Shown piece by piece: positions 9,420-39,906 of a stretch of DNA of 64,000 bases. The notes beneath the pieces are model-generated. The model was not told where the DNA came from, ran no database searches, and saw nothing but the letters and a program-made list of their open reading frames with translations. The stretch's first letter is position 1, and each line of letters starts with the position of its first letter. Both the position numbers and the translations under genes were made by a program. Source of the DNA: Chthoniobacterales bacterium (lineage in GTDB: Bacteria > Verrucomicrobiota > Verrucomicrobiia > Chthoniobacterales > UBA6821); the NCBI GenBank assembly GCA_019747735.1, contig JAIEQL010000040.1, positions 3,179 through 67,178 of the forward strand. Reading direction: 5' to 3'.

Positions 9420-9440
9420 TTAGAGTGGATTAAAGCTAAA

Positions 9441-9592
9441 AACGTGAATGAAAATAAAAAATTTTACGCAATATAATCTGGTTTAAACTGTTCGTTCTCA
9501 TGCCTCACTAACCGTGCAGGTTAGCCACGGCCTTATAACAACCAGTTTTAAATCAGCCTTCTTACGCAAACTTTCTCATTTTCATTCACGTT
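9441..9592. mobile_element. MITE-like nested palindrome, family C copy 1 (TIR AACGTGAATGAAAAT)
   Basis: Left end aacgtgaatgaaaat matches right end attttcattcacgtt. Inner inverted repeats are ctggtttaaactg/ccagttttaaatcag. The TIR is shared with 36012..36203. Confidence 0.7.
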
Positions 9593-14254: not shown

Positions 14255-15214
14255 ATGAGTGTTTTTTTTCATCATTTCTTTGCTGTGAGAAAAATAGACA
14301 AGCAAGCAAGAAGTAGAGTGTTCTCTTTCTTGTTGTCCTTATCTATCCATCTGCTTTTTGTTTTGCTCCTCTGTGTCGGTATCCTTCCTTTTGCTTCACG
14401 CTCTCTTGAGCCTGTGCCTAACAAAGAAAGTTCTCCTCCTCCTGAAGTTATTTTTGACCTTTCTCCCTCGACCACAATGGTGCCGACTACCGTCAGGACA
14501 GATTCTGAGCATCCATTAGAGAAGCCTCCAGAGCATCCTGCTTTTGAATCTCACGAAAACACCGAGGCCTCCAGTGAGCTTCCTGCTACCGGTTCGCTGC
14601 CTCTTCCCACACAAGAAGGAGTTGAGAGTGAGGGAGTCGAACTAAAAACATCAGAAACTCTTGGAAGAAAAACACCCGACTCCACAGTAACTGCCGAAGC
14701 AGCTCCCACTACCACACCAACTCCTTCCCCTACTGGATCAACGTCAGTAGATGCTCCCGCGGTAACGCCGATGGCTACCGCTTCCTCAGATCGCCCAGTG
14801 ATGGGTATACTTTCTTCTTCGGCCAAAACTCAGAGCGAATCCTCGGGGGCGCATCCCTCGATGATTCATGGAGCTATTTCTAATAAAGGAAAATCTTCTG
14901 TCACTGCTGAAGCGACACCGTTAGGGCGCTATAAAAAAAATTTGGCAGATGCCATCAGCTCGCATTGGTACTACGCAATTGATCAGCGAATGGAGCTGCT
15001 CAGCTTTGGAACGGCAACAGTTATTTTTTATGTCACTCAAAATGGAAAGGTAGAAGAACTCCGTATTATTTCTAATAGCTCCAATCAGACTTTTGCCGAC
15101 TGTTGTATTGAGTCCATTACAGGAGCCAAGCTTCCTAGCATTCCTCCAGAAATAGCCCAAACACTTGATCGTGGGCGGTTGGAGATAGAGTATCGATTTA
15201 CGATTTATCCGTAG
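14255..15214 (+). CDS. Membrane-anchored Pro/Thr/Ser-rich protein with possible TonB-like C-terminal domain
   Basis: N-terminal TM helix, a long low-complexity P/T/S/E linker and about 90 aa of C-terminal globular region. The start is moved to Met8 to clear the miaB stop. Confidence 0.4.
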   Translation: MSVFFHHFFAVRKIDKQARSRVFSFLLSLSIHLLFVLLLCVGILPFASRSLEPVPNKESSPPPEVIFDLSPSTTMVPTTVRTDSEHPLEKPPEHPAFESHENTEASSELPATGSLPLPTQEGVESEGVELKTSETLGRKTPDSTVTAEAAPTTTPTPSPTGSTSVDAPAVTPMATASSDRPVMGILSSSAKTQSESSGAHPSMIHGAISNKGKSSVTAEATPLGRYKKNLADAISSHWYYAIDQRMELLSFGTATVIFYVTQNGKVEELRIISNSSNQTFADCCIESITGAKLPSIPPEIAQTLDRGRLEIEYRFTIYP

Positions 15215-15289
15215 AGCATGTCCCAAAAGGCCTAAAATCTCGCACTGCAGCGTCGCCGTAATGCGCAATTTTAGTCTTTTCAAGACACC
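15212..15289 (+). repeat. MITE family A-related fragment (TA|GAGCAT end joined to the ...cgccgtaatgcgcaattttagtcttttcaagacacc module)
   Basis: It shares the GAGCATG terminus with family A. Its 3' 45 nt match 38590..38633. The TA of the upstream gene's TAG stop (15212..15214) is the junction. Confidence 0.65.
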
Positions 15290-15350
15290 TTCTTAAGAAC
15301 ACCTTGCTGAATAGTCGCTAGTTTCTTATCTTTGGCAGCAATCATTTTGT

Positions 15351-18135: not shown

Positions 18136-18309
18136 TAGAGCATATTAAAAAATTCTGTAGCCGCTCATTGCGTCGTCGCTTCGGTGCTCGCTCCATCGAG
18201 TATTGGCTATACACTTCCTCGCTGTGTGGCTCAGCTCCTGGCACTGCATCGACTACAAAAATTTTTAATGATGCTCTAAAATGGCTATAGTTTTATTTAA
18301 AATGCTCTA
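18136..18309 (-). mobile_element. MITE-like element, family A copy 1 (GAGCAT...ATGCTC termini, TA flanks)
   Basis: About 170 bp with TA at both ends. It is near-identical, as reverse complement, to 32229..32402. The TA at 18308..18309 is part of the GH1 stop codon. Confidence 0.8.
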
Positions 18310-19730: not shown

Positions 19731-20612
19731 GTGAAACTAACCATTCTATTATTTTTAAGTGGCCTTATCGCCTGCCATGCCATCAACCACCTCTCTCCTG
19801 ACGAGGTTATTATGAATGATGGAACACATTACAAGGGGCTTATTATCAAAAATGATGCTCGTGAAATTATTTTGCAGCAAGAGACGGGAGAGCATGTAAT
19901 TCCAAAAGCAGCTATTCAAAGAATTGATGATGCTTCCAAAAGCATGATTTATTTTTCTGACTTGGTATCCCCTAACAAAGCACCTTCCTGGCGGATGATA
20001 GCTCAAGATATGCGCTGCAATGATGCGGTCAAATCCTTCATTCAAATACCAGCAACAACGATCTCAGCAGGGTATTTAAAAAATGTTCCTTATCTTTCTT
20101 TTCACATTAATAAGCACGCTGAGATGAATATTTATGGGGACCCTAACAATCCAGCCTGTGTCGAATTTGGAACTTATAATCAAAACAAAGAGCATCTTAA
20201 AAAATTCCAAGAGATTTCTAGACAGCTTCTTGCCGGTTATCTCTCCTCACGAGACGCTATTAAGACGCTCTACAGCCTTAATCTCAAGGGGGATGAAAAA
20301 CCAGTAGGGCCATTTCTTTTTAGAATCATGCCCCCCAGTGATCCTTCCTCTAGTGGAGGATGGTGGATTTCCATTTATGATCCTGTTCTTCTCAAGAAAG
20401 CTCGCGTCAGTGATGCTCATTATCAAAGACTCACACTGCCAGAAGACCAAGTGAGAACGCACCATGGCACGTTACGTTACGATTTGGAGGCGCTTCATCT
20501 CTCCTTTCTTAATAGTTCGATGAAGCATTGGCTTGGTAAGCTTTCTGGGTTTCGTGGTTTTTATAGAAACCAAAATAATGAGCTGAAGATGATGAGTAGT
20601 TCCTCGATGTAG
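19731..20612 (+). CDS. Hypothetical secreted protein (293 aa)
   Basis: GTG start and a signal-like N-terminus, MKLTILLFLSGLIACHA. No recognised domain. Confidence 0.4.
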   Translation: MKLTILLFLSGLIACHAINHLSPDEVIMNDGTHYKGLIIKNDAREIILQQETGEHVIPKAAIQRIDDASKSMIYFSDLVSPNKAPSWRMIAQDMRCNDAVKSFIQIPATTISAGYLKNVPYLSFHINKHAEMNIYGDPNNPACVEFGTYNQNKEHLKKFQEISRQLLAGYLSSRDAIKTLYSLNLKGDEKPVGPFLFRIMPPSDPSSSGGWWISIYDPVLLKKARVSDAHYQRLTLPEDQVRTHHGTLRYDLEALHLSFLNSSMKHWLGKLSGFRGFYRNQNNELKMMSSSSM

Positions 20613-22213: not shown

Positions 22214-23788
22214 ATGGCGCGTCTTTTTTTTCTCCCGCTCATTCTTAGTGTATGTCTCTTCGTGGGCTGTTCTCCTAGCAACAAAAGAGCAGACCTCATT
22301 GCTATTAATGGAGTAGAGCCCGAGACATTGGATCCTGCTCTTTTTATTGGAGAGGCAGACCAAAGAGTGATCAGTGAGCTTTTTGAAGGGCTCACACGAT
22401 TTAATCGCGCTGGCTTGCCAGAACCTGGCATGGCTTCTTGGTGGGAGATCTCATCAGATCATCGAACCTATCTTTTTCACATGCGTCCTGGAGTTTGTTG
22501 GTCTGATGGAACCCCGTTGACAGCTCATGATTTTGTCAAGTCATGGCGACGCACCTTGCAGCCAGAGACAGCTTCAGCCTATAGTTATCAGCTTTTCTGC
22601 CTACAAGGAGCCGAAGATTTTGCAGCGGGAAACAATGCTGATTTTTCTAAAGTTGGTGTTGAGGCTCTCGATGCGGCGACATTAAAAGTAACACTGGCGC
22701 GGTCTGTGCCTTATTTTTTGCAGCTTTGTGCGTTCCCGACTTATTTTCCCGTTCCTGTTGACCTTATTGAGCGAGTCGGAGATGACTGGACAAAACCAGA
22801 GCATATGATCTGCAATGCTGGTTACACCTTGGCTGCTTGGCGGATTAATGACAAAATCACGCTCAAAAAAAACCCCTTTTATTGGGATGCTCAGCATGTT
22901 GCTTTAGAAAAAATCGATGTGCTTCCAATCAGCCAAGCTAATGTAGCTTACAATTTTTATGCCTCAGGAGAAGCTGATCTGCTCTTAGATAAAGCGCTGG
23001 CTCCTCCTTCCTTGCTTGATGAATTACGCAAGCGAGATGATTTTCATTCTTTTCCTTTCTTGGGAGATTATTTTTTGCGTTTCAATTGTAGCAAAGGGCC
23101 CTTTGCTGATGCGCGCGTTCGGAAAGCTTTTGCGCTCTGTTTAAATCGGAAAAATATCACCGAAAAAATAGCGCGTGCAGGAGAGCTTCCGGCAGAAAGC
23201 ATGGTTCCACCTGGCATTCCTGGCTACCAGCCAGCGCATGGTCTTGGTTGCGATCCAGAGTTGGCCCGTCGTCTGTTGGCAGAGGCAGGTTATCCCGGAG
23301 GAAAAGGTTTTCCCCTGACGACCTATCTTTACAATGAGGGAGAGCTCAATGAAGGAATTGCTGTCGAGCTCCAAGCCGTATGGCAGCGCGAGCTGGGCGT
23401 TTCGATTTTATTGGCACGGCAAGAATGGAAGGTTTACTTAAATTCCCTAACGACCATGGATTATGGTATTGCTCGTTCTAGTTGGGTAGGGGACTATGCG
23501 GATCCTAATACCTTTCTCGATATGTTTGTGAGTGATGGTGGCAACAACCGCACGGGATGGAGTTCCAAGCAATATGATCAGCTCATTGGAGAGGCTGCCA
23601 ATGCTTTTGATCCAAAGAAACGTTTTGAAATCTTTCGCCAAGCAGAAGAGTTACTATTATGCGAAGGGGTCCCTGTAGCGCCCCTCTATTTTTATGTTGG
23701 TGTGCAGATTTATGATCCGCGAAAGTGGGGAGGGATTGAGGGGAATGTCCTAGATAAGCATCCGCTGTGGCAGGTTTATCGAAGATAA
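22214..23788 (+). CDS. Peptide/oligopeptide ABC-type substrate-binding lipoprotein (family 5, OppA/DppA-like), copy 1
   Basis: Lipobox is FVGCS. The pattern EPETLDP...LFEGL...W(S)DG.P.TA.DF is typical of SBP_bac_5. Confidence 0.85.
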   Translation: MARLFFLPLILSVCLFVGCSPSNKRADLIAINGVEPETLDPALFIGEADQRVISELFEGLTRFNRAGLPEPGMASWWEISSDHRTYLFHMRPGVCWSDGTPLTAHDFVKSWRRTLQPETASAYSYQLFCLQGAEDFAAGNNADFSKVGVEALDAATLKVTLARSVPYFLQLCAFPTYFPVPVDLIERVGDDWTKPEHMICNAGYTLAAWRINDKITLKKNPFYWDAQHVALEKIDVLPISQANVAYNFYASGEADLLLDKALAPPSLLDELRKRDDFHSFPFLGDYFLRFNCSKGPFADARVRKAFALCLNRKNITEKIARAGELPAESMVPPGIPGYQPAHGLGCDPELARRLLAEAGYPGGKGFPLTTYLYNEGELNEGIAVELQAVWQRELGVSILLARQEWKVYLNSLTTMDYGIARSSWVGDYADPNTFLDMFVSDGGNNRTGWSSKQYDQLIGEAANAFDPKKRFEIFRQAEELLLCEGVPVAPLYFYVGVQIYDPRKWGGIEGNVLDKHPLWQVYRR

Positions 23789-23928
23789 CTTCTGTCCTAA
23801 ATTCTACTGATGAGGCGAAGAGCTGTGTCGCGCCAGTGCTCGCGTCGTCGAGTATGTTCATATACACTCCTCCGCTGTGCGCTGTCGCTCCTTGCTCTTT
23901 ATCTCCATCAGCGAATTTTGAACAGAAG
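23789..23928. repeat. 140-bp palindromic element related to MITE family A (TIR CTTCTGTYCWAAATTC..CTGATGRAG)
   Basis: It starts 1 nt after the oppA-like stop. The central gtgctcgc..tcgagtat..catatacac.tcctc.gctgtg resembles the family A centre. Confidence 0.65.
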
Positions 23929-23962
23929 TTAGACGGGTTCTCTTTCCATCTTTTTTAAAATC

Positions 23963-31228: not shown

Positions 31229-32095
31229 ATGAACCCTTCCACCCTAGCACTCATTAAAACTGCCCTTGCCGAGGACATCGCTACAGGTGATATCACTTCT
31301 ATGGCCTTTATTCCCGAAGCGATGAGAAGTCACGGACGTATCATCACTCGTCATCCAGCGGTGATTGCAGGATTAGCAGTGGCAATAGAAGTTTTTCGCC
31401 AAGTTGATTCTAATAATGAGGTCACCCTTTGTGCTGCAGAGGGAGAGGGTTTGGAGGCAGGTGCACCTTTATTGGAAGTGAGTGGACCAACACGAAGCTT
31501 GCTCACAGCAGAAAGAGTTGTTTTGAATTTTTTGGGACGCCTTACTGGAATTGCTAGTCTCACGCGTCGTTACGTTGATGCCGTTGTAGGAACAGGAGTT
31601 CTTATTTTGGACACCCGTAAGATGACTCCCGGTTGGAGAATCCTGGAAAAAGAAGCTGTGAAAGCCGGAGGAGGGAAAAATCATCGTCAGGGGCTCTTCG
31701 ATGCCATCTTGGTGAAAGATAACCATCTTGTGGCACTCGGGCCTGAGGGATTATCGAGACTTCCTCAGGTGCTTCAAAAAATACGAGCAGATCATCCAAC
31801 GTTGAAAATTGAAATAGAAGCAGACACCCTCGAACAAGTCTCTTTTTTCTTAGAGCAGCGCGAGGTCAATACCATTCTCCTTGATAATATGAGCCTTGAG
31901 CAGCTGCGTACTGCAGTAGCGTTGCGCCAGCAAAAGAATCGTAATGTACGTCTTGAAGCCAGTGGTGGAATTACCTTGGAGAAAATTCGAGCCGTCGCAG
32001 AGACAGGCATTGATGAAATTTCTTTGGGAGCGTTGACTCATTCGGCAGTGTGGGCAGATTTGTCAATGGAGTTTGAATATACCTTTGTCGGATAA
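31229..32095 (+). CDS. nadC: Nicotinate-nucleotide pyrophosphorylase (carboxylating)
   Basis: Typical QPRTase pattern: EDI..GDITS, LTAERV.LNFL, KDNH, EASGGI. Confidence 0.9.
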   Translation: MNPSTLALIKTALAEDIATGDITSMAFIPEAMRSHGRIITRHPAVIAGLAVAIEVFRQVDSNNEVTLCAAEGEGLEAGAPLLEVSGPTRSLLTAERVVLNFLGRLTGIASLTRRYVDAVVGTGVLILDTRKMTPGWRILEKEAVKAGGGKNHRQGLFDAILVKDNHLVALGPEGLSRLPQVLQKIRADHPTLKIEIEADTLEQVSFFLEQREVNTILLDNMSLEQLRTAVALRQQKNRNVRLEASGGITLEKIRAVAETGIDEISLGALTHSAVWADLSMEFEYTFVG

Positions 32096-32228
32096 ATTTT
32101 AGGTTTTTTTTACGCAGGAATTAATTCCTAAAATTCATTCGAGAAAGGTATAAACTCTTTGTTATTCTGAGGAGCAATGAAAAAAGCGTTCATTTATCAA
32201 CAAGACTCTTTTGCTGGTACACTCGGGC

Positions 32229-32402
32229 TAGAGCATTTTAAATAAAACTACAGCCATTTTAGAGCATCATGAAAAATTTTTGTAGTCGATGCAGTGCCAG
32301 GAGCTGAGGCGCACATCGAGGGAGTGTATAGCCAATACTCGATGGAGCGAGCACCGAAGCGACGACGCAATGAGCGGCTACAGAATTTTTTAATATGCTC
32401 TA
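32229..32402 (+). mobile_element. MITE-like element, family A copy 2
   Basis: TA|GAGCATTTTAAAT...ATTTTTTAATATGCTC|TA. It differs from the reverse complement of 18136..18309 at only about 10 positions. Confidence 0.8.
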
Positions 32403-32579
32403 GAAGGGAATGCCTGCTCTACTAAAAGAAGCTATCTACTCTTCTTTTCATGAAGGAGTGTCGCGTTTATTTCTTTTGACTCACTTTTCAAAAAAACATT
32501 GTTTTGAGATGTTGAGTTAAGTTGATTTATAAGTATTGGTTCCAATTTTCTAGAAATTTCTAGCCAACTCTAAAAAATC

Positions 32580-35500
32580 ATGAAAAAACTTCCCCTTGTT
32601 TTTCTCCTGGGCACTCTCGCGCTCGCACCTGTGCGCGTGAGTGCGATGACGGAAGCGGACAAAAAAGAAGAGCATAAAAAGTCGGGTGATTCAAAAGGAA
32701 CCCTCCCAAAAAACACCGACGAGAAATGGCTCAAAGCTCATGAAAAAGCCATTGGGGAAGTTAATAGTCCTCCAGTTAACAACAACACGGAAACTGAGAT
32801 TGAGGTATTTGTTGAGAAGGGTGAAATCATCGAGGATAACACTCTGAAACCGACTTCCAATGCTGATGCTCAACCCAACTCGTCACTAGTTAACGCTGAT
32901 GAAGAAAGTGAAAAGGAAGATCTTTTCAATCTAGATGTTTTAGAACAAAGACTACAAGAGGCTCGAGAGGTCGTTGCTGATTTACGAGGAAAGGGGACTG
33001 CGCTTTCAGAACAAGAACTCAGCGGTCTTTATCAAAAGTGGACTAATCGATACGAACGTTACGAAAAAAAGTCAGATATTTTTGAGCGAACGAATAACAT
33101 TGGAACCATCGCAGGGCAGCAAATTGAAGAGCGACTAAAAAAGCTTTTAAAAACTTCTGCTGAGGCTATGCAAGCGCTTAAGCAAAGCTTAGAAAACATT
33201 ACTCAAGGTTGCGCAACACGCACTGATGATGTCGGCCACTTTCACTTTAAAAAAGAGGAACCTAACTTAGAAGCGCTTGTTAGTTCCTACGATTACAGCA
33301 CCACAGAGAATCATTCAGTCTTTTGGACAGGATGGCATCCCAATTCTTCTCAATGCAATTTTGAGCGAGCTAAAGAATATGCAACACGCACTAATAAAAA
33401 AGTTTTAGAGATAACTCCAGGAGGAGAGAGGCTGGGAGCACAGGGTTTTCATAATCCAGAGTCTTACCTTAATAAGCGTGATGCCGATTTTATTTGGGGA
33501 GTTGCTTCTAGGAGATTTGTTGAAGGAGCTTCGGGACATGTGGTCGCTTTTGTGTTAGAGAAAGTCGATCCCTTTACAACTTATCGCAAAATGGAAAAGC
33601 CAGTATTGAAGAGCAAGGAAACGGCTTTCTTGAGCGAAGTTATTGTTAAGCGAGATCAGAAGCTATTGCTCACAGAGGCTGAGCAAGAGTTATTTGAGCG
33701 CGAGCAAGCAGTAGAAAAAAAGCTTCATCCTCTTTTTCAAAACGTCAGAACTGCATGGGAGAAGATAGGGAATTATTCCGCCTTTCATCCCGATAACATT
33801 CGCGACTTTTTAGGGAGCATTGATGTTAAGAACCAATCGACCTCAGTCCAGCAGGAGCTCTCTCAGTTTGCTTCCCAGCTAAATCCCTTTACTAAAAAAG
33901 TGAAGGCTCTCTCCGAGGCTTGGGATGAGCTTCGTAAGGCCATTTACAGTTTTCAGCATGAGGGTTTAGAAAATGCACATATTCAGCAAGTGAGTAAGGT
34001 GCGAGAAAAATTTCGCGAGTTAGAGCAGCTTGAGACGGTTTCTAAAACATGGAGTGAAGAATATGACCGCTTTAGGGAGGCTATGCAGTTTTTTGATTAT
34101 CAAATTTTCAAAGCTTATCAAGAGAGGGGCGAAATGGACAAAGCAGCTCGATGGAAAGAAGAGACGAGGATTTATGAAGAAAAACAACAACAACAAATGC
34201 TACAGCAATCTGCTGCACAATTTATCAGAGGGAAGATTATCACAGGGCTTTCTCACTTTGATGACTCTCAAGATTCAAAAAAAGAGTGCTTCCAACAAGA
34301 AGTCTCCATTGATGATATGCCTCCTCTTTTTTCTCAAGAGAAACAATCAGGAACAGTTATTCCAGAAACACCTCCCTATTTGAAGAGCTTCAATAGATTA
34401 AAATTCATTAATCCAATGTTTGCTCTTATAAGGCTGCTTGGCGATTTGCAACAATACATAAAACCAATTGAAGAAAAGGAAGGGTTAGCCAAAAGTTTTT
34501 TTATAACGAGTCCATTGCTAGATAATTACAGGACTTTCTTTGGTAGGCCTACTTATAAAGAGACTATCAATTTTCTTGTCGAGAAATTAGAAGAGGTTCA
34601 AGAATCAAAAATTGAAGAAAGTCTCAATAGTATTACGAAAGACAATGCTATCCTCCAAAGTTACAGCACGACTGCTGAGCTAAAAAATCTCTTAGCTTGG
34701 ATAAAAGAGGAGCATGGTAAATACCGACAAGAAAAACAATGCCTTAAAGAACACGCTGAATCTATTCGAGATGATGAAAAGACAGACTATTCTGACTTTG
34801 ACTGTTGGATATATAAAAAGAAAAAAGAAGAACTCTCACGCCTAGAAAATGAGAAGGAACTTTTGCCTAGTCTATCGTCAAGAATTGACGCTGTCATTTT
34901 AGAAATAGAGAAAACAACAAAAATAGCAAACGACGACTATCATTATACAATAAAAAAACTTACTCCTGAAGCTAGACATGAAGCTGCCATTGCTGAAGGA
35001 GAGAACAGGATTGAACAAGCTGATGCAGCTATGGAACAAAGTGAAGGAAGCTCTTTTTCTAAAAAAGCTACTAAAGAAGATCCTTATGCACCTTATCAAA
35101 AGTTTTATAACTTACTGGACATCTTTGATAAAAAAACAAAACAGCATGCAGAGGCTACTAAAGAAACAATTCGTGCTTACAAAGATACGATTGATGTTTA
35201 CAAAACGCCCCCTAAGGAAAACGGGGAAGAAGTCTCTCCCGCCATTCCTTACGCAGAATGTTTTGAAAGTACTCAGTGTTTAAATGAGGAAAACTTATTA
35301 CTAATAGGAAATGGGGGAAAGAGAACTTTATCAAACAACAGACTGGAAGATATTGTAAAAAAAGATAGTGATAAGGCGAAGGAAAAGGAAAAGGAAGTAA
35401 TTAATAAAAGCTCTTTTTGGGAATATCGAGTTTGGGGTTCTCCTAGCCTTAATGAAGCACGTGAAAATGTTCAAGCTGCTGAAAAACAAATTGAAAGACG

Positions 35501-35966
35501 TGAGAATATTTCCAGGAAGATTACAGAACAAGCAACAGAAATTCAGAAGACTCAAAACACGTTAGCTCAAAAAAAAGAAGCTGAAACAGAGCTTGCTAAA
35601 GAAAAAGAAAAAGTTACAAAGCAAGCTGAAGAAGAGCGACAAAAGACCTTAAAAGAAAACCAAAAAGAGATAGAAAAATTTTCAAAAAAACATGAGAAAG
35701 ATTTGAAAGATTTGTCTTGCGAACTCTCTAATCAGGAAAGCTTAGAGCAACATAATAAGCACATAAAAAGCAGAATAGTCAATCTTAGTAAAGAGATAAA
35801 AGAAAAAAAAGATGAGATAAAAGAGATAAGAGAAAAAAATAATATAACTACTGATACACCCCTTCTTGATCTCTATAATGGAATCAAAAGTTTGTTTTCT
35901 TGTCCTTCGCATATAACATCTAATGAGGTGAAATGTGCACCACCTCCAGAAGATTTAAATAATTAG
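32580..35966 (+). CDS. Secreted 1128-aa coiled-coil protein with an ADP-ribosyl cyclase/CD38-like domain (about aa 215-358)
   Basis: Signal peptide is MKKLPLVFLLGTLALAPVRVSA. Motifs VFWTGW, EYATRTNKKVLEITPGG, FIWGVASRRFVEGASGHVVAFVL and TTYRKMEKPVL parallel the Aplysia cyclase / CD38 motifs. The rest is K/E-rich helical sequence. Confidence 0.7.
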   Translation: MKKLPLVFLLGTLALAPVRVSAMTEADKKEEHKKSGDSKGTLPKNTDEKWLKAHEKAIGEVNSPPVNNNTETEIEVFVEKGEIIEDNTLKPTSNADAQPNSSLVNADEESEKEDLFNLDVLEQRLQEAREVVADLRGKGTALSEQELSGLYQKWTNRYERYEKKSDIFERTNNIGTIAGQQIEERLKKLLKTSAEAMQALKQSLENITQGCATRTDDVGHFHFKKEEPNLEALVSSYDYSTTENHSVFWTGWHPNSSQCNFERAKEYATRTNKKVLEITPGGERLGAQGFHNPESYLNKRDADFIWGVASRRFVEGASGHVVAFVLEKVDPFTTYRKMEKPVLKSKETAFLSEVIVKRDQKLLLTEAEQELFEREQAVEKKLHPLFQNVRTAWEKIGNYSAFHPDNIRDFLGSIDVKNQSTSVQQELSQFASQLNPFTKKVKALSEAWDELRKAIYSFQHEGLENAHIQQVSKVREKFRELEQLETVSKTWSEEYDRFREAMQFFDYQIFKAYQERGEMDKAARWKEETRIYEEKQQQQMLQQSAAQFIRGKIITGLSHFDDSQDSKKECFQQEVSIDDMPPLFSQEKQSGTVIPETPPYLKSFNRLKFINPMFALIRLLGDLQQYIKPIEEKEGLAKSFFITSPLLDNYRTFFGRPTYKETINFLVEKLEEVQESKIEESLNSITKDNAILQSYSTTAELKNLLAWIKEEHGKYRQEKQCLKEHAESIRDDEKTDYSDFDCWIYKKKKEELSRLENEKELLPSLSSRIDAVILEIEKTTKIANDDYHYTIKKLTPEARHEAAIAEGENRIEQADAAMEQSEGSSFSKKATKEDPYAPYQKFYNLLDIFDKKTKQHAEATKETIRAYKDTIDVYKTPPKENGEEVSPAIPYAECFESTQCLNEENLLLIGNGGKRTLSNNRLEDIVKKDSDKAKEKEKEVINKSSFWEYRVWGSPSLNEARENVQAAEKQIERRENISRKITEQATEIQKTQNTLAQKKEAETELAKEKEKVTKQAEEERQKTLKENQKEIEKFSKKHEKDLKDLSCELSNQESLEQHNKHIKSRIVNLSKEIKEKKDEIKEIREKNNITTDTPLLDLYNGIKSLFSCPSHITSNEVKCAPPPEDLNN

Positions 35967-36011
35967 GGTATTAGTGAAAATGTTGTTCGAATAGGGACAA
36001 AAATGAATTAT

Positions 36012-36203
36012 CCTTAAAACGTGAATGGGCATGAATAATATTTTGTAAGGAGTTGGTTCCAATAGGTTTTTTCAACCGGTGCGGCGTACCTTAAGCCATA
36101 GCTTGCTGTGGCGCTCCTTTTTATACATAAGCTTGCGGTTGGAAAAAATTATTGGGGCCAAGTATATTGCAAAAGATTATCATGATCCGTTCACGTTTTT
36201 AGG
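36012..36203. mobile_element. MITE-like nested palindrome, family C copy 2
   Basis: CCTTAAAACGTGAATGGGCATGAATAAT pairs with ATTATCATGATCCGTTCACGTTTTTAGG. Inner repeats are gttggttccaatagg / ccaataatttt..ccaacc. It ends 2 nt from the stop of the convergent SUMF1 gene. Confidence 0.7.
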
Positions 36204-36204
36204 A

Positions 36205-38457
36205 TTATCGGAATCTCCAAAAAAGATTTAGAAGACCATCTATGGTAATACCAAAACCAGCCATAGCATTCTCAATATCTTTTCCGTAATAAGCACAAAC
36301 AAGGCCTCCTACAATTAATCCGCCAGGGATAAGAATATCAAGAGGAGGTGGCAATAGTAGAGCAGCTTCAGCAGTAGCTTCGATAGCAGCTTCGATAGCA
36401 GGGGTAGCAGCAGCTCCTTCCTCCACGACGGCTTCTTCTAGTAAGGAAGCTGTGGTTGGCGTTGCCCTCACACCAATCCACGTTTTTAGGTATCGTTGTA
36501 TAGCCTCCGGAATGATAAGACCAAAAGTCCAATTTAAGATATTCATACTGGCAGTACTTGCATTCTCAGCAAAATAGGATGGTGACAAATCGTTCCAAGT
36601 TTGCTTAAGGCCATCCCAAAAACGAGCACCTAGTCTTAGCACTCCATACTCTACCTTATGAGCAGGTGATTCTGGTGGTGGTGGAACATTGTAGACCAAA
36701 CGGAATCCAATGGTATTGGTTTTGGTACCTATAGGAATAATCCTTCGCATCGAAGTAATACCTATTTCTCCGGTAATAGGATTAATATTACCATCAAGAC
36801 TCTCGCCACTGTCACTACTCTTTATCTCTGATTTCCACGAACCACCTCGCAGAGCAAAGTCCCATCTCGGCTTAACACTACCTTCAATCTCAATGGTAGC
36901 ATTACGAAACAAAGTCCATTGATCCACGTTCCCAGACATATCATAGAGACCAAAAGGGCTTTTCGTTTTTTTAAAAAATCCTACAGGAGTTATGTAAGGT
37001 GCATTACTCTGAGTATAATGACCATCTAAACAAAAGTTAGCATCATTATTGTTTCTTGTTGCCAGTTCTATACTATTTGTTGGTAGCTCGTCAGTTCCTG
37101 TTCCATACTTATAATAACATTGATTAGTACCTGGAAAACCATCCCAATCTACTGTTGCTTTTTGATAGTATGCAGCCTTATACCACTGGCTTTCTGTGGG
37201 AAGAGACCATCGTGCACCAACATTGGCTATCACAGTGATAGAGATAGCTCTTCCTGTTTTAATTGTTGTTACAGTTCCTTCACTAAGAGTCCCATTAAAA
37301 CTCTTGATAGGAGGATTAGTAATAGTCTTATAAATATCATTAGTTGTATAAATAATATCAAAAGCTCCCGTTTGTGTTGTCCCAGGCCCCTCTTCTCCAA
37401 GTGGTTGTCCATTTTCTATCCAGTTACAAAAAGAAGCAGCTCGGACTCCTGAAATATAGGTAATTGGAAACTTTTCTCGTCCTGGTATCACTTCATAATC
37501 ATAAGGATTGGTCTCTCCAATGCGAGTGATACAGGCAATATTACTATCAGACCCCATGTTGGTATCATACAGTTCATAACGATCATTATTGGTAGCCACT
37601 GCTTTTAAAAAAGCACAGTACTGCTGGGCAGTAACATCAGTAACGCCGATCTGAAAAACATTAGATACAGAACCCAAACCACCCCACTGGAGCTGGTCAT
37701 GTTGATTGCCAGGATCATCAATAGTCGCTAATTCAATTTTAATTGGTTTTGTATTTTTTATTATGACTGGTAGAGCATCATTTCCAGATGTAGATGAGTT
37801 ATCAGGTGAATCCATCAGAAGTGGACTTCCTCCTAGTAAAGGAATGATAGCTCTATTGTTTTCTGGACTTTCTATTGTTGATAAAGAATTGCCTATCGAA
37901 AAAGGAATACCCTTATTTTCGATCATAGCATCACTGCTATCCACACAATCTATTACAAAGTTGGCTCCACTACTCCCTAAGCCAAGCATTGGATCAACAT
38001 TACTTAATGCATTATTACTACTTAGGCGATAGTGAGCATTGGGTGTTGGTAAGAATTGAAAAGCAAGAGCATCACCTCCATTAGTTATGGAAGTTAGGTC
38101 ATAAACACCAGTTTCTGTGTTAGCATCTCCTCCTCCATTTTCCTTCCAATTACAAAACCGAGCTTGCGATATTTTATTAACATAAGTAATAGCAGCAGTG
38201 GTACCTCCTAAAATAGAATAATGATAGGCCCCAGGATGTCCATATCGCTTGATCATTGGAAGGGCATATTGCATTTCAGGATCGTAAAGATGATAAAGAT
38301 CAGTAGTGGCTACCTTGTTAAGAAAATGACAATAGTCATCAAGGGTCACGAGACTTGTAACATATTTAATATCTTCTCGTGCAGAACCAACCTGGTGAAA
38401 GGCCATTAGGAAAAAACTGCAGCAAAAAAAGAATTTTTTTAAAAAAGAAGAAACCAT
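36205..38457 (-). CDS. SUMF1/FGE (formylglycine-generating-enzyme-like) repeat protein with signal peptide and C-terminal membrane anchor
   Basis: Two N-terminal FGE half-domains (FLNKVA...ARFCNW and FLKAVA...ASFCNW) plus the C-terminal signature LYDMSGNVDQW...LRGGSW. The hydrophobic tail is ILIPGGLIVGGLVCAYYG. Confidence 0.75.
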   Translation of the reverse strand: MVSSFLKKFFFCCSFFLMAFHQVGSAREDIKYVTSLVTLDDYCHFLNKVATTDLYHLYDPEMQYALPMIKRYGHPGAYHYSILGGTTAAITYVNKISQARFCNWKENGGGDANTETGVYDLTSITNGGDALAFQFLPTPNAHYRLSSNNALSNVDPMLGLGSSGANFVIDCVDSSDAMIENKGIPFSIGNSLSTIESPENNRAIIPLLGGSPLLMDSPDNSSTSGNDALPVIIKNTKPIKIELATIDDPGNQHDQLQWGGLGSVSNVFQIGVTDVTAQQYCAFLKAVATNNDRYELYDTNMGSDSNIACITRIGETNPYDYEVIPGREKFPITYISGVRAASFCNWIENGQPLGEEGPGTTQTGAFDIIYTTNDIYKTITNPPIKSFNGTLSEGTVTTIKTGRAISITVIANVGARWSLPTESQWYKAAYYQKATVDWDGFPGTNQCYYKYGTGTDELPTNSIELATRNNNDANFCLDGHYTQSNAPYITPVGFFKKTKSPFGLYDMSGNVDQWTLFRNATIEIEGSVKPRWDFALRGGSWKSEIKSSDSGESLDGNINPITGEIGITSMRRIIPIGTKTNTIGFRLVYNVPPPPESPAHKVEYGVLRLGARFWDGLKQTWNDLSPSYFAENASTASMNILNWTFGLIIPEAIQRYLKTWIGVRATPTTASLLEEAVVEEGAAATPAIEAAIEATAEAALLLPPPLDILIPGGLIVGGLVCAYYGKDIENAMAGFGITIDGLLNLFWRFR

Positions 38458-38463
38458 ATCTCT

Positions 38464-38633
38464 TAGAGCATGTTAAATAAAACCACAGCCATTTTAGGGC
38501 ATCATTAAAAATTTTTGTAGTCGATGCAGTGCCAGGAGCTGAGGCGTACAGCGAGGGAGTGTATAGCCAATACTCGATGGAGCGAGCACTGGAGCGACGC
38601 CGTAATGCGCAATTTTAGTCTTTTCAAGACACC
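38464..38633 (+). mobile_element. MITE-like element, family A copy 3 (chimeric 3' end)
   Basis: The first 125 nt or so are collinear with copy 2. The 3' end is replaced by the module also seen at 15245..15289. It begins 6 nt upstream of the SUMF1 gene ATG. Confidence 0.75.
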
Positions 38634-38714
38634 CTCTACAGTTCGATGAGGAGTGGAGGGAAAACGGTCATTAGCTTTATGCCTCTCAATCCGTATCTTC
38701 TCTGCCTACTCTAC

Positions 38715-39314
38715 TCAAAGAAGGGAATTCAGTGGTAGTGCAGTAATGACTTTTTCAATGCGGGTATCAGGTATAAGCCAAAACAATGCCACCAGCACAT
38801 AGACTCCTCCGGCAATTCGAGGATTAATAAACGAGAGACCGATTCCAACAAGGTAAAGAAACAGAGAGGCCTTTCCCTTCCAATCGTTGCCTAAGGCCTG
38901 GCCTAATGTTGATTCACGTCCCCCCTGGTCTCTCACGATGAGATTCTGAAGGATGAAGTAAGCTTGAGCCGCCAGAAAAAGAACACCCCCATAGATTGCA
39001 TAAGGAAGTTTAGTAAAATGATTCTGACCTACCCACCCTGTAACAAAAGGAAAGAGGGAGAGCCAGAAAAGGAGATGGAGGTTCGCCCAGAGAATACCAC
39101 CAGTGACTCGGCGGCAAGCCTTAATGAGATGATGATGATTGTTCCAATAGACACCGACATAAAGAAAACTCAAGATATAGCTTAGAAAAACAGGTAAGAG
39201 TGGTCTCAAATCTGAGCACTCAGTACCGTGTGGGACCTTCATTTCGAGCACCATGATAGTAATGATGATGGCGATTACACCATCACTGAAAGCTTCAAGC
39301 CGGTTCTTTTCCAT
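38715..39314 (-). CDS. TMEM175-family potassium channel (DUF1211)
   Basis: [24 protein letters not shown] matches the RxxxFSDGV signature in TM1. Six TM segments. The start is moved to Met46 of the track ORF. Confidence 0.7.
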
Positions 39315-39906
39315 GAATTTTAATAGCAATCTCGGCAACATGTCGGCCTTGAAAGCGAGCAATCGCCAACTCCTTCGCGCTTGGTTGTCGGGAACCGTCC
39401 GCTCCAGCAATGGTACCAGCTCCGTAGGGACTTCCCCCCTTGACCTCACTGAGATCGTTTAATTCAGGACAGGAATAAGGAACCCCAGTAAAGATCATCC
39501 CGTGATGAATCAACGTCGGCAGAAAGCTCAGGATAGTCGACTCATTGCCTCCACCGGTTCCGGTGCTGGTGAAGACACCAGCAACCTTGCCAACAAGTTC
39601 CCCTTTGACCCAGAGGCCCCCAGTCTGATCAAAAAAATTCCGCATCTGGGCGGCCATGTTGCCGAAGCGCGTAGGTGTTCCGAAGAGAAAGGCATCATAG
39701 TGGGCAAGTTCTGCTGGAGATGCGATCAATGCCTTTTGCTCGGTCTTAACTCCATGCCTCTTGGCAATCTCCTCTGACATCAGCTCGGGAACACGTTTTA
39801 TGGTTACCTCGACCCCGTCGACAGAACGGGCGCCTTCGGCCACAGCCTCGGACATAGTTTCGATGTGACCGTACATGGAGTAGTAGAGAACGAGTAGTTT
39901 TGTCAT
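39295..39906 (-). CDS. wrbA: NAD(P)H:quinone oxidoreductase, type IV (WrbA flavodoxin-like)
   Basis: [25 protein letters not shown] and the PTRFGNM...F.D motif. Confidence 0.9.

What the first reader, a model, noticed from the sequence alone, without database searches (positions are those of the whole stretch)
32229..38633. 6.4-kb two-gene block bracketed by direct copies of the same MITE, with a third element between the genes
MITE family A copies 2 (32229..32402) and 3 (38464..38633) share orientation and are collinear for about 125 nt. They bracket exactly two convergent genes:
- the CD38-like coiled-coil protein
- a double-SUMF1 membrane-anchored protein

A family C palindrome (36012..36203) fills the gap between the two stop codons. 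The coiled-coil gene looks more A/T- and Lys/Glu-codon-rich than the flanking housekeeping genes (judged by eye, not computed).

The layout resembles a composite, recombination-prone cassette carrying secreted or surface factors. It may have been horizontally acquired, or it may be excisable by recombination between the direct repeats.
Basis: partly seen in the sequence, partly recalled or inferred. Interest (0 to 1): 0.6.

Follow-up and report, generated by a model that had tools for sequence, protein, structure and literature searches.

The report
Accessory gene pocket flanked by MITEs
Two lineage-specific surface or secreted protein genes (one with a CD38-like NAD-destroying domain) lie between copies of a small repeat that litters this freshwater Verrucomicrobia genome. 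Nothing shows that the repeats make the pair a mobile or excisable cassette.

Summary
Two same-orientation copies of one MITE-like family (32229-32402 and 38464-38638) match at 93% over 147 nt. They flank two convergent genes, with a 196-nt palindrome between the two stop codons.

[quoted passage not shown] The block is also the most compositionally deviant stretch of the 64-kb window (FGE gene GC3 0.256, against 0.389±0.045 for the other genes).

The cassette reading is not supported:
- The repeat family is dense here (four core-bearing copies 5.7-8.4 kb apart) and in related freshwater Chthoniobacterales. A direct pair around two genes or fewer is expected 10-28% of the time.
- The two flanking copies belong to different subfamilies. 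Copy 2's nearest relative is the inverted copy 1, not copy 3.
- Both genes belong to families expanded within the same genome (at least 5 ARC giant proteins, at least 3 FGE paralogs), and these are not paired elsewhere.
- Each gene is simply the last gene of one of two converging gene strings.
- Relatives have nadC-birA-tsaD, so the left edge is an old synteny break sitting in a repeat hotspot. It is not an empty insertion site.

Verdict: an ordinary accessory-gene pocket colonised by MITEs. Deletion between the copies is possible (40-nt exact runs) but undemonstrated.

The parts
32078..32152 (.). 'E' palindrome (TATACCTTT...AAAGGTATA). Its left arm encodes the last 5 codons and the stop of nadC. 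It marks the synteny break with relatives.
   Evidence: Both arms found by pattern search. Hairpin z = -5.8. The motif recurs in L089 and L102. The Logan contigs of this strain end exactly at 32152.
32229..32402 (+). MITE-like element, A-type, copy 2. Both termini are TAGAGCAT...ATGCTCTA, and the left terminus is duplicated at 32260.
32411..32431 (+). 21-nt motif TGCCTGCTCTACTAAAAGAAG. It is a direct repeat (19/21) of 38703-38723.
   Evidence: 2 matches found, 0.01 expected by chance.
32580..35966 (+). Gene for a 1128-aa K/E-rich protein with a predicted Sec signal peptide (by eye). The N-terminal 230 aa are shared with a paralogue. GenBank MBX9743287.1, locus tag K2W99_07120.
33282..33614 (+). 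ADP-ribosyl cyclase / CD38-like (Tox-ARC) domain, aa ~235-345. Motifs VFWTG, LEITPGG, IWGVASRRF and MEKPVL are present.
36010..36205 (.). 'C' palindrome, a MITE-like long hairpin between the two stop codons. It contains one terminator-like site.
   Evidence: z = -8.4. (stem 36095-36112 followed by a T run). Related copy in L101. Fragment at 9431-9475.
36205..38457 (-). Gene for a 750-aa FGE-sulfatase (SUMF1-like) domain protein. It has an N-terminal signal peptide, a partial N-terminal domain duplicate and a C-terminal hydrophobic anchor. GenBank MBX9743288.1.
   Evidence: GC3 is 0.256, the lowest in the window.
38464..38638 (+). MITE-like element, copy 3. It is an A-left / B-right hybrid lying 6 nt upstream of the FGE start codon.
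38703..38723 (+). Second copy of the 21-nt motif. It overlaps the TMEM175 stop codon.
18136..18309 (-). MITE-like element, A-type, copy 1. It is inverted and 97% identical to copy 2.
23786..23931 (-). MITE-like element with the same core but a third terminus type (TAACTTCTG...CAGAAGTTA).
15212..15295 (+). Short (84-nt) A-left / B-right derivative that lacks the core.

Best explanation
The block is an accessory-gene pocket, not a cassette. It sits where two co-directional strings of housekeeping genes converge. These are the + string 27310->35966 (nuo, rnd, nadC) and the - string 43089->36205 (glutamate dehydrogenase-like gene, rumA, rhodanese, wrbA, TMEM175).

The last gene of each string belongs to a family that has expanded within this Chthoniobacterales genome.
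- One is a Sec-exported, K/E-rich giant protein. Its N-proximal Tox-ARC (CD38-fold) domain most likely hydrolyses NAD(P)+ outside the cytoplasm. This function is inferred from conserved catalytic residues and from characterised homologues.
- The other is a membrane-anchored FGE/SUMF1-like protein of unknown substrate.

All three intergenic spacers of the pocket have been colonised by small palindromic MITE-like elements whose termini begin with TA. These elements are abundant in this genome and across freshwater Chthoniobacterales.

The same-orientation pair around the two genes is a by-product of that density. The gene 3' ends here are insertion hotspots. The nadC/birA adjacency kept by relatives was broken at such a hotspot.

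Shown: the repeats, the gene content, the ARC fold, the paralogy, the composition and the synteny break. Inferred: incidental bracketing, export, NADase activity, and repeat-associated rearrangement as the origin of the junction.
For: Repeat density and chance.
- Four core-bearing copies lie 5.7, 8.4 and 6.2 kb apart, alongside other palindrome families.
- Simulation gives P = 0.10-0.28 for a direct pair around two genes or fewer.

The family is widespread and looks mobile.
- It occurs in 51 JGI freshwater contigs plus two related MAGs.
- Near-identical B-type copies sit in different flanks, some copies form tandem arrays, and one copy lies in frame inside an ORF.

The two flanking copies are not sisters.
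- Copy 2 vs copy 1 is 97% over 174 nt. Copy 2 vs copy 3 is 93% over 147 nt, with different right ends.

Paralogy.
- ARC giant proteins K2W99_07120, _08160, _03585, _07330 and _02890 are all in the same MAG.
- FGE paralogues are 61% and 56% identical in the same MAG. Their accession numbers place them away from the ARC genes (an inference).

ARC fold.

Synteny.
- L001, L002, L003, L004 and L115 all have nadC-birA-tsaD.
- L003 and six more distant loci also keep the upstream nuoB-nuoC-rnd-nadC order.

Hotspot at the nadC 3' end.
- The E palindrome supplies the nadC tail in the window.
- A B-type MITE terminus sits at the same codon in the 85%-identical relative L114.

Low GC3 is typical of secreted or accessory genes in relatives: L057, 0.26-0.31; L110, 0.23-0.28 against 0.43-0.53; L083, 0.36 against 0.43-0.58.
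Against: - The block really is the compositional outlier of the window. That would also fit recent acquisition.
- Logan assemblies of the same strain recover nadC, wrbA and other long genes. They hold neither block gene in full. Their contigs stop at 32152 and 38686 in several runs. The right-hand stop is not explained by any repeat I could identify, so population-level variability of the block is not excluded.
- The outer ends of the block (A-left, B-right) are the same end combination as in the stand-alone hybrids (copy 3 and 15212-15295). A transposase acting on those ends could in principle move the whole block.
- A significant 21-nt direct repeat lies just right of both MITE copies and is unexplained.
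- I could not read the rest of the MAG, so genome-wide copy number and the contexts of the paralogues are unknown.
Confidence: 0.6

Rival explanations
1. Composite, MITE-bounded mobile cassette. A transposase that recognises the A-left end of copy 2 and the B-right end of copy 3 moves the 6.4-kb segment as a unit. Alternatively, RecA-type recombination between the direct copies excises it as a circle.
For: Direct orientation, with 147 nt at 93% identity and exact runs of 40 and 38 nt. The outer end combination A-left/B-right also exists in the stand-alone elements at 38464-38638 and 15212-15295. Compositional atypicality.
Against: There is no second copy of the block, since the paralogues are at most 61% identical at the protein level. 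The two genes are not paired at other loci (L057). Copy 2 is closer to copy 1 than to copy 3. The bracket is expected by chance. The TA termini make target duplications uninformative. No junction evidence exists.
Confidence: 0.07
2. Recently acquired foreign island. The two genes came by horizontal transfer from a lower-GC donor and landed downstream of nadC. The MITEs arrived afterwards or came with them.
For: Lowest GC3 and largest codon-usage and tetranucleotide deviation in the window. The coiled-coil protein has almost no full-length homologues. Synteny breaks at this point.
Against: The closest homologues of both genes are paralogues in the same MAG and proteins of related Chthoniobacterales. 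Low GC3 also marks accessory or secreted genes in related contigs, so it looks like a class property rather than a donor signature. Part of the deviation comes from amino-acid composition (K+E 24%). No integrase, tRNA or att-like feature is present.
Confidence: 0.12
3. The palindromic elements are functional parts of the locus. Copy 3 would supply the 5' UTR or promoter of the FGE gene, the C palindrome would act as a bidirectional terminator, and the conserved core would be a regulatory RNA or a protein-binding site.
For: Copy 3 ends 6 nt from the FGE start codon. The C palindrome sits exactly between the two stop codons and contains a terminator-like stem with a T run. The core is conserved across subfamilies that have different arms. 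Pairs 54-114 and 72-97 inside the core covary.
Against: The elements show no consistent orientation relative to neighbouring genes (copies are -, -, +, + among differently oriented genes). There is no Rfam match. Promoter-like hits are fewer than in shuffled sequence. Core invariance is partly forced by the pattern I searched with. Covariation of the arms is what inverted terminal repeats give anyway.
Confidence: 0.1

Closest known systems
Bacterial MITEs and related palindromic repeats (Correia/NEMIS, RPE of Rickettsia, REPINs, IS630/Tc1-derived MITEs)
   Same: They are 85-175 nt long with long inverted arms and fold as a single hairpin. They are multi-copy, mostly intergenic, and carry no ORF. 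Subfamilies and internal-deletion derivatives exist. Termini begin with TA, as in IS630/Tc1 targets. One copy lies in frame inside a gene, as RPEs do.
   Different: No partner transposase was identified. A ~60-nt apical core is shared by subfamilies whose arms and termini differ (A, B and at least two others). Some arms carry GTAG, as REP/REPIN elements do. I found no published description in Verrucomicrobia. PMC3733652 reports only short GTAG REPs in Opitutus.
Composite transposons and MITE-flanked mobile insertion cassettes
   Same: Two related elements in direct orientation flank passenger genes.
   Different: The flanking copies are different subfamilies and are not each other's closest relatives. 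There is no second copy of the unit, no recognisable target duplication and no transposase.
Tox-ARC / CD38-fold NAD(P)+ glycohydrolase toxins (Zhang et al. 2012, PMC3482391; Pantoea ananatis PAAR-ARC, PMC12605009; PMC12356396)
   Same: Significant profile and fold matches. The W, E...TPGG, W..S and catalytic E motifs are conserved.
   Different: Here the domain is N-proximal (aa ~235-345), after a Sec-type signal and a 200-aa leader shared with a paralogue. It is followed by ~780 aa of K/E-rich sequence. It is not a C-terminal tip on an Rhs, CDI, T6SS or T7SS carrier. No adjacent immunity gene is present. At least five such proteins occur in one genome.
FGE-sulfatase / SUMF1-EgtB-PvdO domain family (PF03781)
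   Same: One full domain, E = 2.9e-14.
   Different: It has an extra partial N-terminal repeat and a C-terminal membrane anchor, and it belongs to a lineage-specific paralogue family. Catalytic residues were not examined.

Membership tests
[quoted passage not shown] | Small size (<~300 nt) and no coding capacity | tested here: met
   Lengths are 174, 175, 146 and 84 nt, with no ORF.
[quoted passage not shown] | Terminal inverted repeats | tested here: met
   TAGAGCAT.TTAAA is found at both ends. The arms pair in 93.6% of cells across 40 copies, and 15 of 20 arm pairs change on both sides.
[quoted passage not shown] | Multiple dispersed copies in different flanking contexts | tested here: met
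   Four core-bearing copies in the window. 51 metagenome contigs plus two MAGs, with near-identical B-type copies in different flanks.
[quoted passage not shown] | Target-site duplication | tested here: inconclusive
   All termini begin and end with TA. That TA could be a TA duplication or part of the repeat itself. No empty site was available.
[quoted passage not shown] | A cognate autonomous element with matching ends | not tested
   No transposase turned up among the proteins I scanned near the block. The rest of the MAG could not be read.
Composite transposon / excisable cassette | Flanking elements that are copies of one element, with the unit found at more than one site or with junction evidence | tested here: not met
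   The flanks differ in their right ends and are 93% identical, while copy 2 is 97% identical to copy 1. Neither gene has a second copy above 61% protein identity.
Composite transposon / excisable cassette | Deletion or circle junctions in the population | not testable with these tools
The Logan contigs stop at 32152 and 38686, which is uninformative.
ADP-ribosyl cyclase / Tox-ARC (PF02267 superfamily) | Significant sequence relationship to the family | tested here: met
   The query alone gives no direct Pfam hit. Homologues hit PF02267 (27.3 bits against a cutoff of 25). The family profile hits 9ro8 at 6e-15, Aplysia cyclase at 1e-8 and CD38 at 2e-7.
ADP-ribosyl cyclase / Tox-ARC (PF02267 superfamily) | Fold | tested here: met
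   AF2 model with pLDDT 83.6. Top Foldseek PDB hits are 9ouf, 9ro8, CD38 and Aplysia cyclase, all with probability 1.00.
ADP-ribosyl cyclase / Tox-ARC (PF02267 superfamily) | Catalytic Glu and the conserved W/E/S positions | tested here: met
   E135 of the domain (protein E339) is invariant. E73 (E277), W102 (W306) and F44 are nearly invariant and are present in the window protein. The equivalence to CD38 E226/E146/W189 rests on my own knowledge.
ADP-ribosyl cyclase / Tox-ARC (PF02267 superfamily) | NAD(P)+ hydrolase or cyclase activity | not testable with these tools
   A biochemical assay is needed.
Polymorphic toxin system | C-terminal toxin on a trafficking carrier, with an adjacent immunity gene | tested here: not met
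   The domain is N-proximal. No Rhs, PAAR, CDI or WXG module was found. The next feature downstream is the C palindrome, followed by the convergent FGE gene.

The most novel reading that the evidence does not exclude
The 'MITE' is not plain selfish DNA. Its ~60-nt apical core (...GCGCACAGCG..GAGTGTATA....ATACTCGA.G..GCGAGCAC...) is kept across subfamilies that have swapped their arms and termini. It occurs throughout freshwater Chthoniobacterales. It could be a functional, undescribed structured module (an RNA or a single-strand DNA hairpin) that hitch-hikes on several mobilisation systems and reshapes gene ends and gene order. In this genome that would include the placement of its NADase and FGE effector-like families.
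Probability: 0.15. Interest if true: 0.5.

Novelty: new member of a known kind. Interest (0 to 1): 0.3.

Why it matters
The flagged feature does not need a special mechanism, which saves chasing a "cassette" that is probably a coincidence of repeat density.

Three by-products are more useful:
- A previously undescribed, widespread palindromic repeat superfamily in freshwater Chthoniobacterales. It alters gene 3' ends and can sit in frame inside genes.
- A genome with at least five Sec-signal, N-proximal CD38-fold NADase giant proteins. This architecture differs from the C-terminal polymorphic-toxin format in which bacterial ARC domains were recently characterised, and it hints at an extracellular or host-directed use.
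- A concrete read-mapping test on named SRA runs that would settle whether the block varies in the population.

Tried and rejected
- Exact-protein look-ups of the FGE gene, nadC (TTG start) and the NCBI paralogues P0004, P0006 and P0002 returned nothing. The contexts of the paralogues therefore stayed out of reach.
- Rfam found nothing in the window, in the copy 2 region at E<=10, or in five loci with an extra GNRA-hairpin module. I had guessed that module was a group II intron domain V. That guess is rejected.
- Pfam and PDB searches with the ARC region alone found nothing, and the single-sequence AF2 model was useless (pLDDT 34). Only the exhaustive HMMER search and the profile built from it worked.
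- I first read the Logan contig ends at 32152 and 38686 as signs of an insertion/deletion polymorphism. The left end coincides with the terminus of the E palindrome, a repeat family, so I withdrew that reading for the left side. The right side remains unexplained.
- I considered the A/B hybrid copy 3 as a footprint of recombination at this locus. I rejected this because a second A-left/B-right element exists at 15212-15295.
- I considered the 21-nt repeat as part of another dispersed family. No further copy was found in 115 loci.
- The L057 neighbour of an FGE homologue shares only a signal-peptide-like string with the ARC protein, so a recurrent ARC-FGE pairing is rejected.
- The inverted repeat at 20188-20272 lies inside an ORF and lacks the core, so it is not counted as an element.
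- NCBIfam and a PDB search of the K/E-rich tail gave nothing useful.
Full report
**Source.** The window is part of a 79.7-kb contig of an NCBI metagenome-assembled genome labelled 'Chthoniobacterales bacterium', locus tags K2W99_. The two block proteins are MBX9743287.1 and MBX9743288.1. Its nadC is 65-75% identical to other Chthoniobacterales MAGs and 85% identical to one short Logan contig.

**Observation.** The repeat finder confirms the direct pair 32229-32375 / 38464-38610, 93% identical over 147 nt. It also confirms an inverted third copy at 18136-18309, 97% identical to copy 2 over 174 nt.

Copies 1 and 2 carry TAGAGCAT.TTAAA at both ends. Copy 3 shares the left 147 nt, then switches to a different right terminus...TTTTCAAGACACCCTCTA. 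That terminus also ends a short element at 15212-15295.

A fourth element at 23786-23931 has the same central core but a third kind of arm.

Exactly two convergent ORFs lie between copies 2 and 3. The gap between their stop codons is filled by a 196-nt palindrome that folds far better than shuffled sequence (z = -8.4).

**The two genes: the ARC protein.** The 1128-aa protein has no Pfam or NCBIfam hit and only one partial homologue in the word-indexed search. That homologue is a paralogue sharing the N-terminal 230 aa.

An exhaustive HMMER search with residues 205-370 found 244 relatives.
- Some hit Pfam ADP-ribosyl cyclase (PF02267).
- Others sit at the C-termini of RHS or haemagglutinin-repeat proteins.
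- A 21-sequence profile hits PDB 9ro8 (ADP-ribosylcyclase toxin, 6e-15), 9ouf, Aplysia cyclase (1e-8) and CD38 (2e-7).
- With that alignment, AlphaFold gives pLDDT 83.6, and Foldseek returns the same structures first.
- The invariant Glu (E339) and the nearly invariant E277 and W306 are present.

So 'CD38-like' is correct. This is a Tox-ARC domain (Zhang et al. 2012, PMC3482391), whose bacterial members deplete NAD(P)+ (PMC12605009, PMC12356396).

The architecture is unusual. It has a Sec-type signal (read by eye), a 200-aa leader, then the ARC domain, then ~780 K/E-rich residues. There is no carrier module and no adjacent immunity gene. Four more ARC giant proteins are encoded in the same MAG.

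**The two genes: the FGE protein.** The 750-aa protein has one full FGE-sulfatase domain and a partial N-terminal duplicate. It has two paralogues in the same MAG, 61% and 56% identical. By accession numbering (an inference), the ARC and FGE paralogues are not neighbours elsewhere. An FGE homologue in Logan contig L057 has unrelated neighbours.

**Composition.** GC3 is 0.321 for the ARC gene (z = -1.5) and 0.256 for the FGE gene (z = -2.9, the lowest of 42 genes). The other genes average 0.389±0.045.

The FGE gene is the most deviant long gene in amino-acid-conditioned codon usage. All eight most deviant 6.4-kb tetranucleotide windows overlap the block.

However, accessory or secreted genes in related contigs show the same low GC3 relative to their neighbours. 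Both genes also have their nearest relatives inside the clade. The signal therefore reads as a gene-class property rather than as a foreign-donor signature.

**Synteny.** Seven relatives keep nuoB-nuoC-rnd-nadC upstream. None of 56 nadC loci has TMEM175, wrbA, rhodanese or rumA within 10 kb downstream.

The five closest loci with readable flanks (L001-L004, L115) all have nadC-birA-tsaD. Neither birA nor tsaD is in the window.

The break falls in the last codons of nadC.
- In the window, a 75-nt palindrome (E, 32078-32152, z = -5.8) supplies the nadC tail and stop codon.
- In the 85%-identical relative L114, a B-type MITE terminus is inserted at the same codon.

There is therefore no 'empty site' to compare with. 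The left edge is an older rearrangement point located in a repeat hotspot.

**Gene orientation.** The ARC gene is the last gene of the + string that runs from 27310. The FGE gene is the last gene of the - string that runs from 43089. The C palindrome marks the point of convergence. Seen this way, each gene is a terminal addition to a different string, not half of a unit.

**The repeat family.** A pattern taken from the core found 51 JGI freshwater-metagenome contigs. BLAST found copies in the related MAG loci L001 and L002.

Aligned, 40 copies show a conserved apical core and long arms that differ between subfamilies yet always pair. Arm cells are 93.6% paired, and 15 of 20 arm pairs change on both sides. 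All terminus types begin with TA.

Other features of the family:
- Near-identical B-type copies sit in different flanks.
- Tandem arrays with a 144-nt period occur in L064 and L066.
- Elements abut one another in L086, L098 and L113.
- One copy lies in frame inside an ORF in L093.

There is no Rfam match. These are MITE-like mobile palindromes. The mobilising enzyme is unknown. TA ends suggest IS630/Tc1, while GTAG in some arms recalls REPINs. Neither idea was tested.

Part of the core's invariance is forced by my search pattern. Two internal pairs (54-114 and 72-97) do covary.

**Is the bracket meaningful?** Core-bearing copies lie 5.7, 8.4 and 6.2 kb apart. Random placement of 3-4 copies among 38-56 gaps gives a direct pair around two genes or fewer in 10-28% of trials.

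Copy 2's closest relative is copy 1, not copy 3. Copies 1 and 2 are therefore the better recombination substrate, and the outcome would be inversion of 14 kb. Copies 2 and 3 share exact runs of 40 and 38 nt, so deletion is possible, but nothing shows that it occurs.

**Independent assemblies.** Logan contigs 100% identical to the window come from runs SRR15085116, -120, -121 and -128. They recover nadC, wrbA, and the 524-, 537- and 665-aa genes.

They hold neither block gene in full. In several runs they end at exactly 32152 and 38686.

The left end is the terminus of the E palindrome, a repeat seen elsewhere, so a repeat-induced break is the simpler reading. The right end is unexplained. It lies 17 nt from one copy of a significant 21-nt direct repeat (32411-32431 / 38703-38723), which is also unexplained. 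These points keep population-level variability of the block open. Only read mapping can settle it.

**Verdict.** The block is a compositionally distinct, lineage-specific accessory pocket encoding a secreted CD38-fold NADase-like giant protein and a membrane FGE-like protein. It lies in intergenic DNA saturated with MITE-like palindromes. The cassette, composite-transposon and excision ideas have no positive evidence and several points against them.

Noticed in passing
window 18136-18309, 23786-23931, 32229-32402, 38464-38638; loci L001, L002, L063-L113: A palindromic repeat superfamily with a conserved ~60-nt apical core and at least four different arm/terminus types. It was found in 51 JGI freshwater metagenome contigs and two related MAGs, and sometimes forms tandem arrays with a 144-nt period (L064, L066). 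There is no Rfam match, and I found no published description.
   Followed up: partly
L093:971-1113 within ORF 565-1221: A copy of the repeat lies in frame, without stop codons, inside a 218-aa Cys-rich ORF downstream of a rhodanese gene. This resembles Rickettsia palindromic elements found inside genes.
   Followed up: partly
window 32078-32152; L114:1040-1065: The 3' end of nadC is a repeat hotspot. In the window a 75-nt palindrome supplies the last 5 codons and the stop. In the 85%-identical relative a B-type MITE terminus is inserted at the same codon and gives a different C-terminal tail.
   Followed up: yes
window 32411-32431 and 38703-38723: A 21-nt direct repeat (19/21) lies just right of both flanking MITE copies. 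The second copy overlaps the TMEM175 stop codon. It is significant against shuffles, and no other copy was found in 115 loci.
   Followed up: partly
window 32152 and 38686 (ends of L059/L060 and L061/L062): Independent Logan assemblies of the same strain stop at identical positions on both sides of the block and contain neither block gene in full. Other long genes of the window are recovered.
   Followed up: partly
window 18136-18309 vs 32229-32402: Copies 1 and 2 are inverted repeats, 97% identical over 174 nt, that enclose 13.9 kb including the nuo-rnd-nadC genes. They are a better substrate for inversion than copies 2 and 3 are for deletion.
   Followed up: no
same MAG, other contigs (P0153, P0154, P0155, P0158; P0004, P0006): The genome encodes at least five giant proteins (1128 to 2470 aa, two of them partial) with an N-proximal ARC domain, and at least three membrane FGE-domain paralogues. 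This looks like an expanded secreted or surface arsenal.
   Followed up: partly
L065, L069, L071, L079, L082, L102: A second small module made of three short hairpins with GNRA-like loops (...GACTGCCGAAGGCAGCCCCAAAGGGGCGAGCCTCGCGGGAGCGAGCGAG...) is inserted in or next to repeat copies, for example between atpF and atpH in L071. It shows a compensatory change (CTCGC/GCGAG to CTCAC/GTGAG). It has no Rfam hit and is absent from the window.
   Followed up: partly
window 32178-32246: A 22-codon ORF (MKKAFIYQQDSFAGTLGLEHFK) with a good Shine-Dalgarno sequence runs into MITE copy 2 and stops inside it. It may be the remnant 5' end of a disrupted gene.
   Followed up: no
window 32580-32650; L057:3385-3460; P0002 N-terminus: Unrelated secreted proteins of this clade share a near-identical signal-peptide string (..GTLALAPV[RH]VS[AG]M[TM]..).
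   Followed up: no
window 38715-39449 and 39295-39906: The longest TMEM175 ORF (GTG start at 39449) overlaps the end of wrbA by 155 nt. Logan gene calls give 199-208 aa, so the true start is probably further downstream.
   Followed up: no
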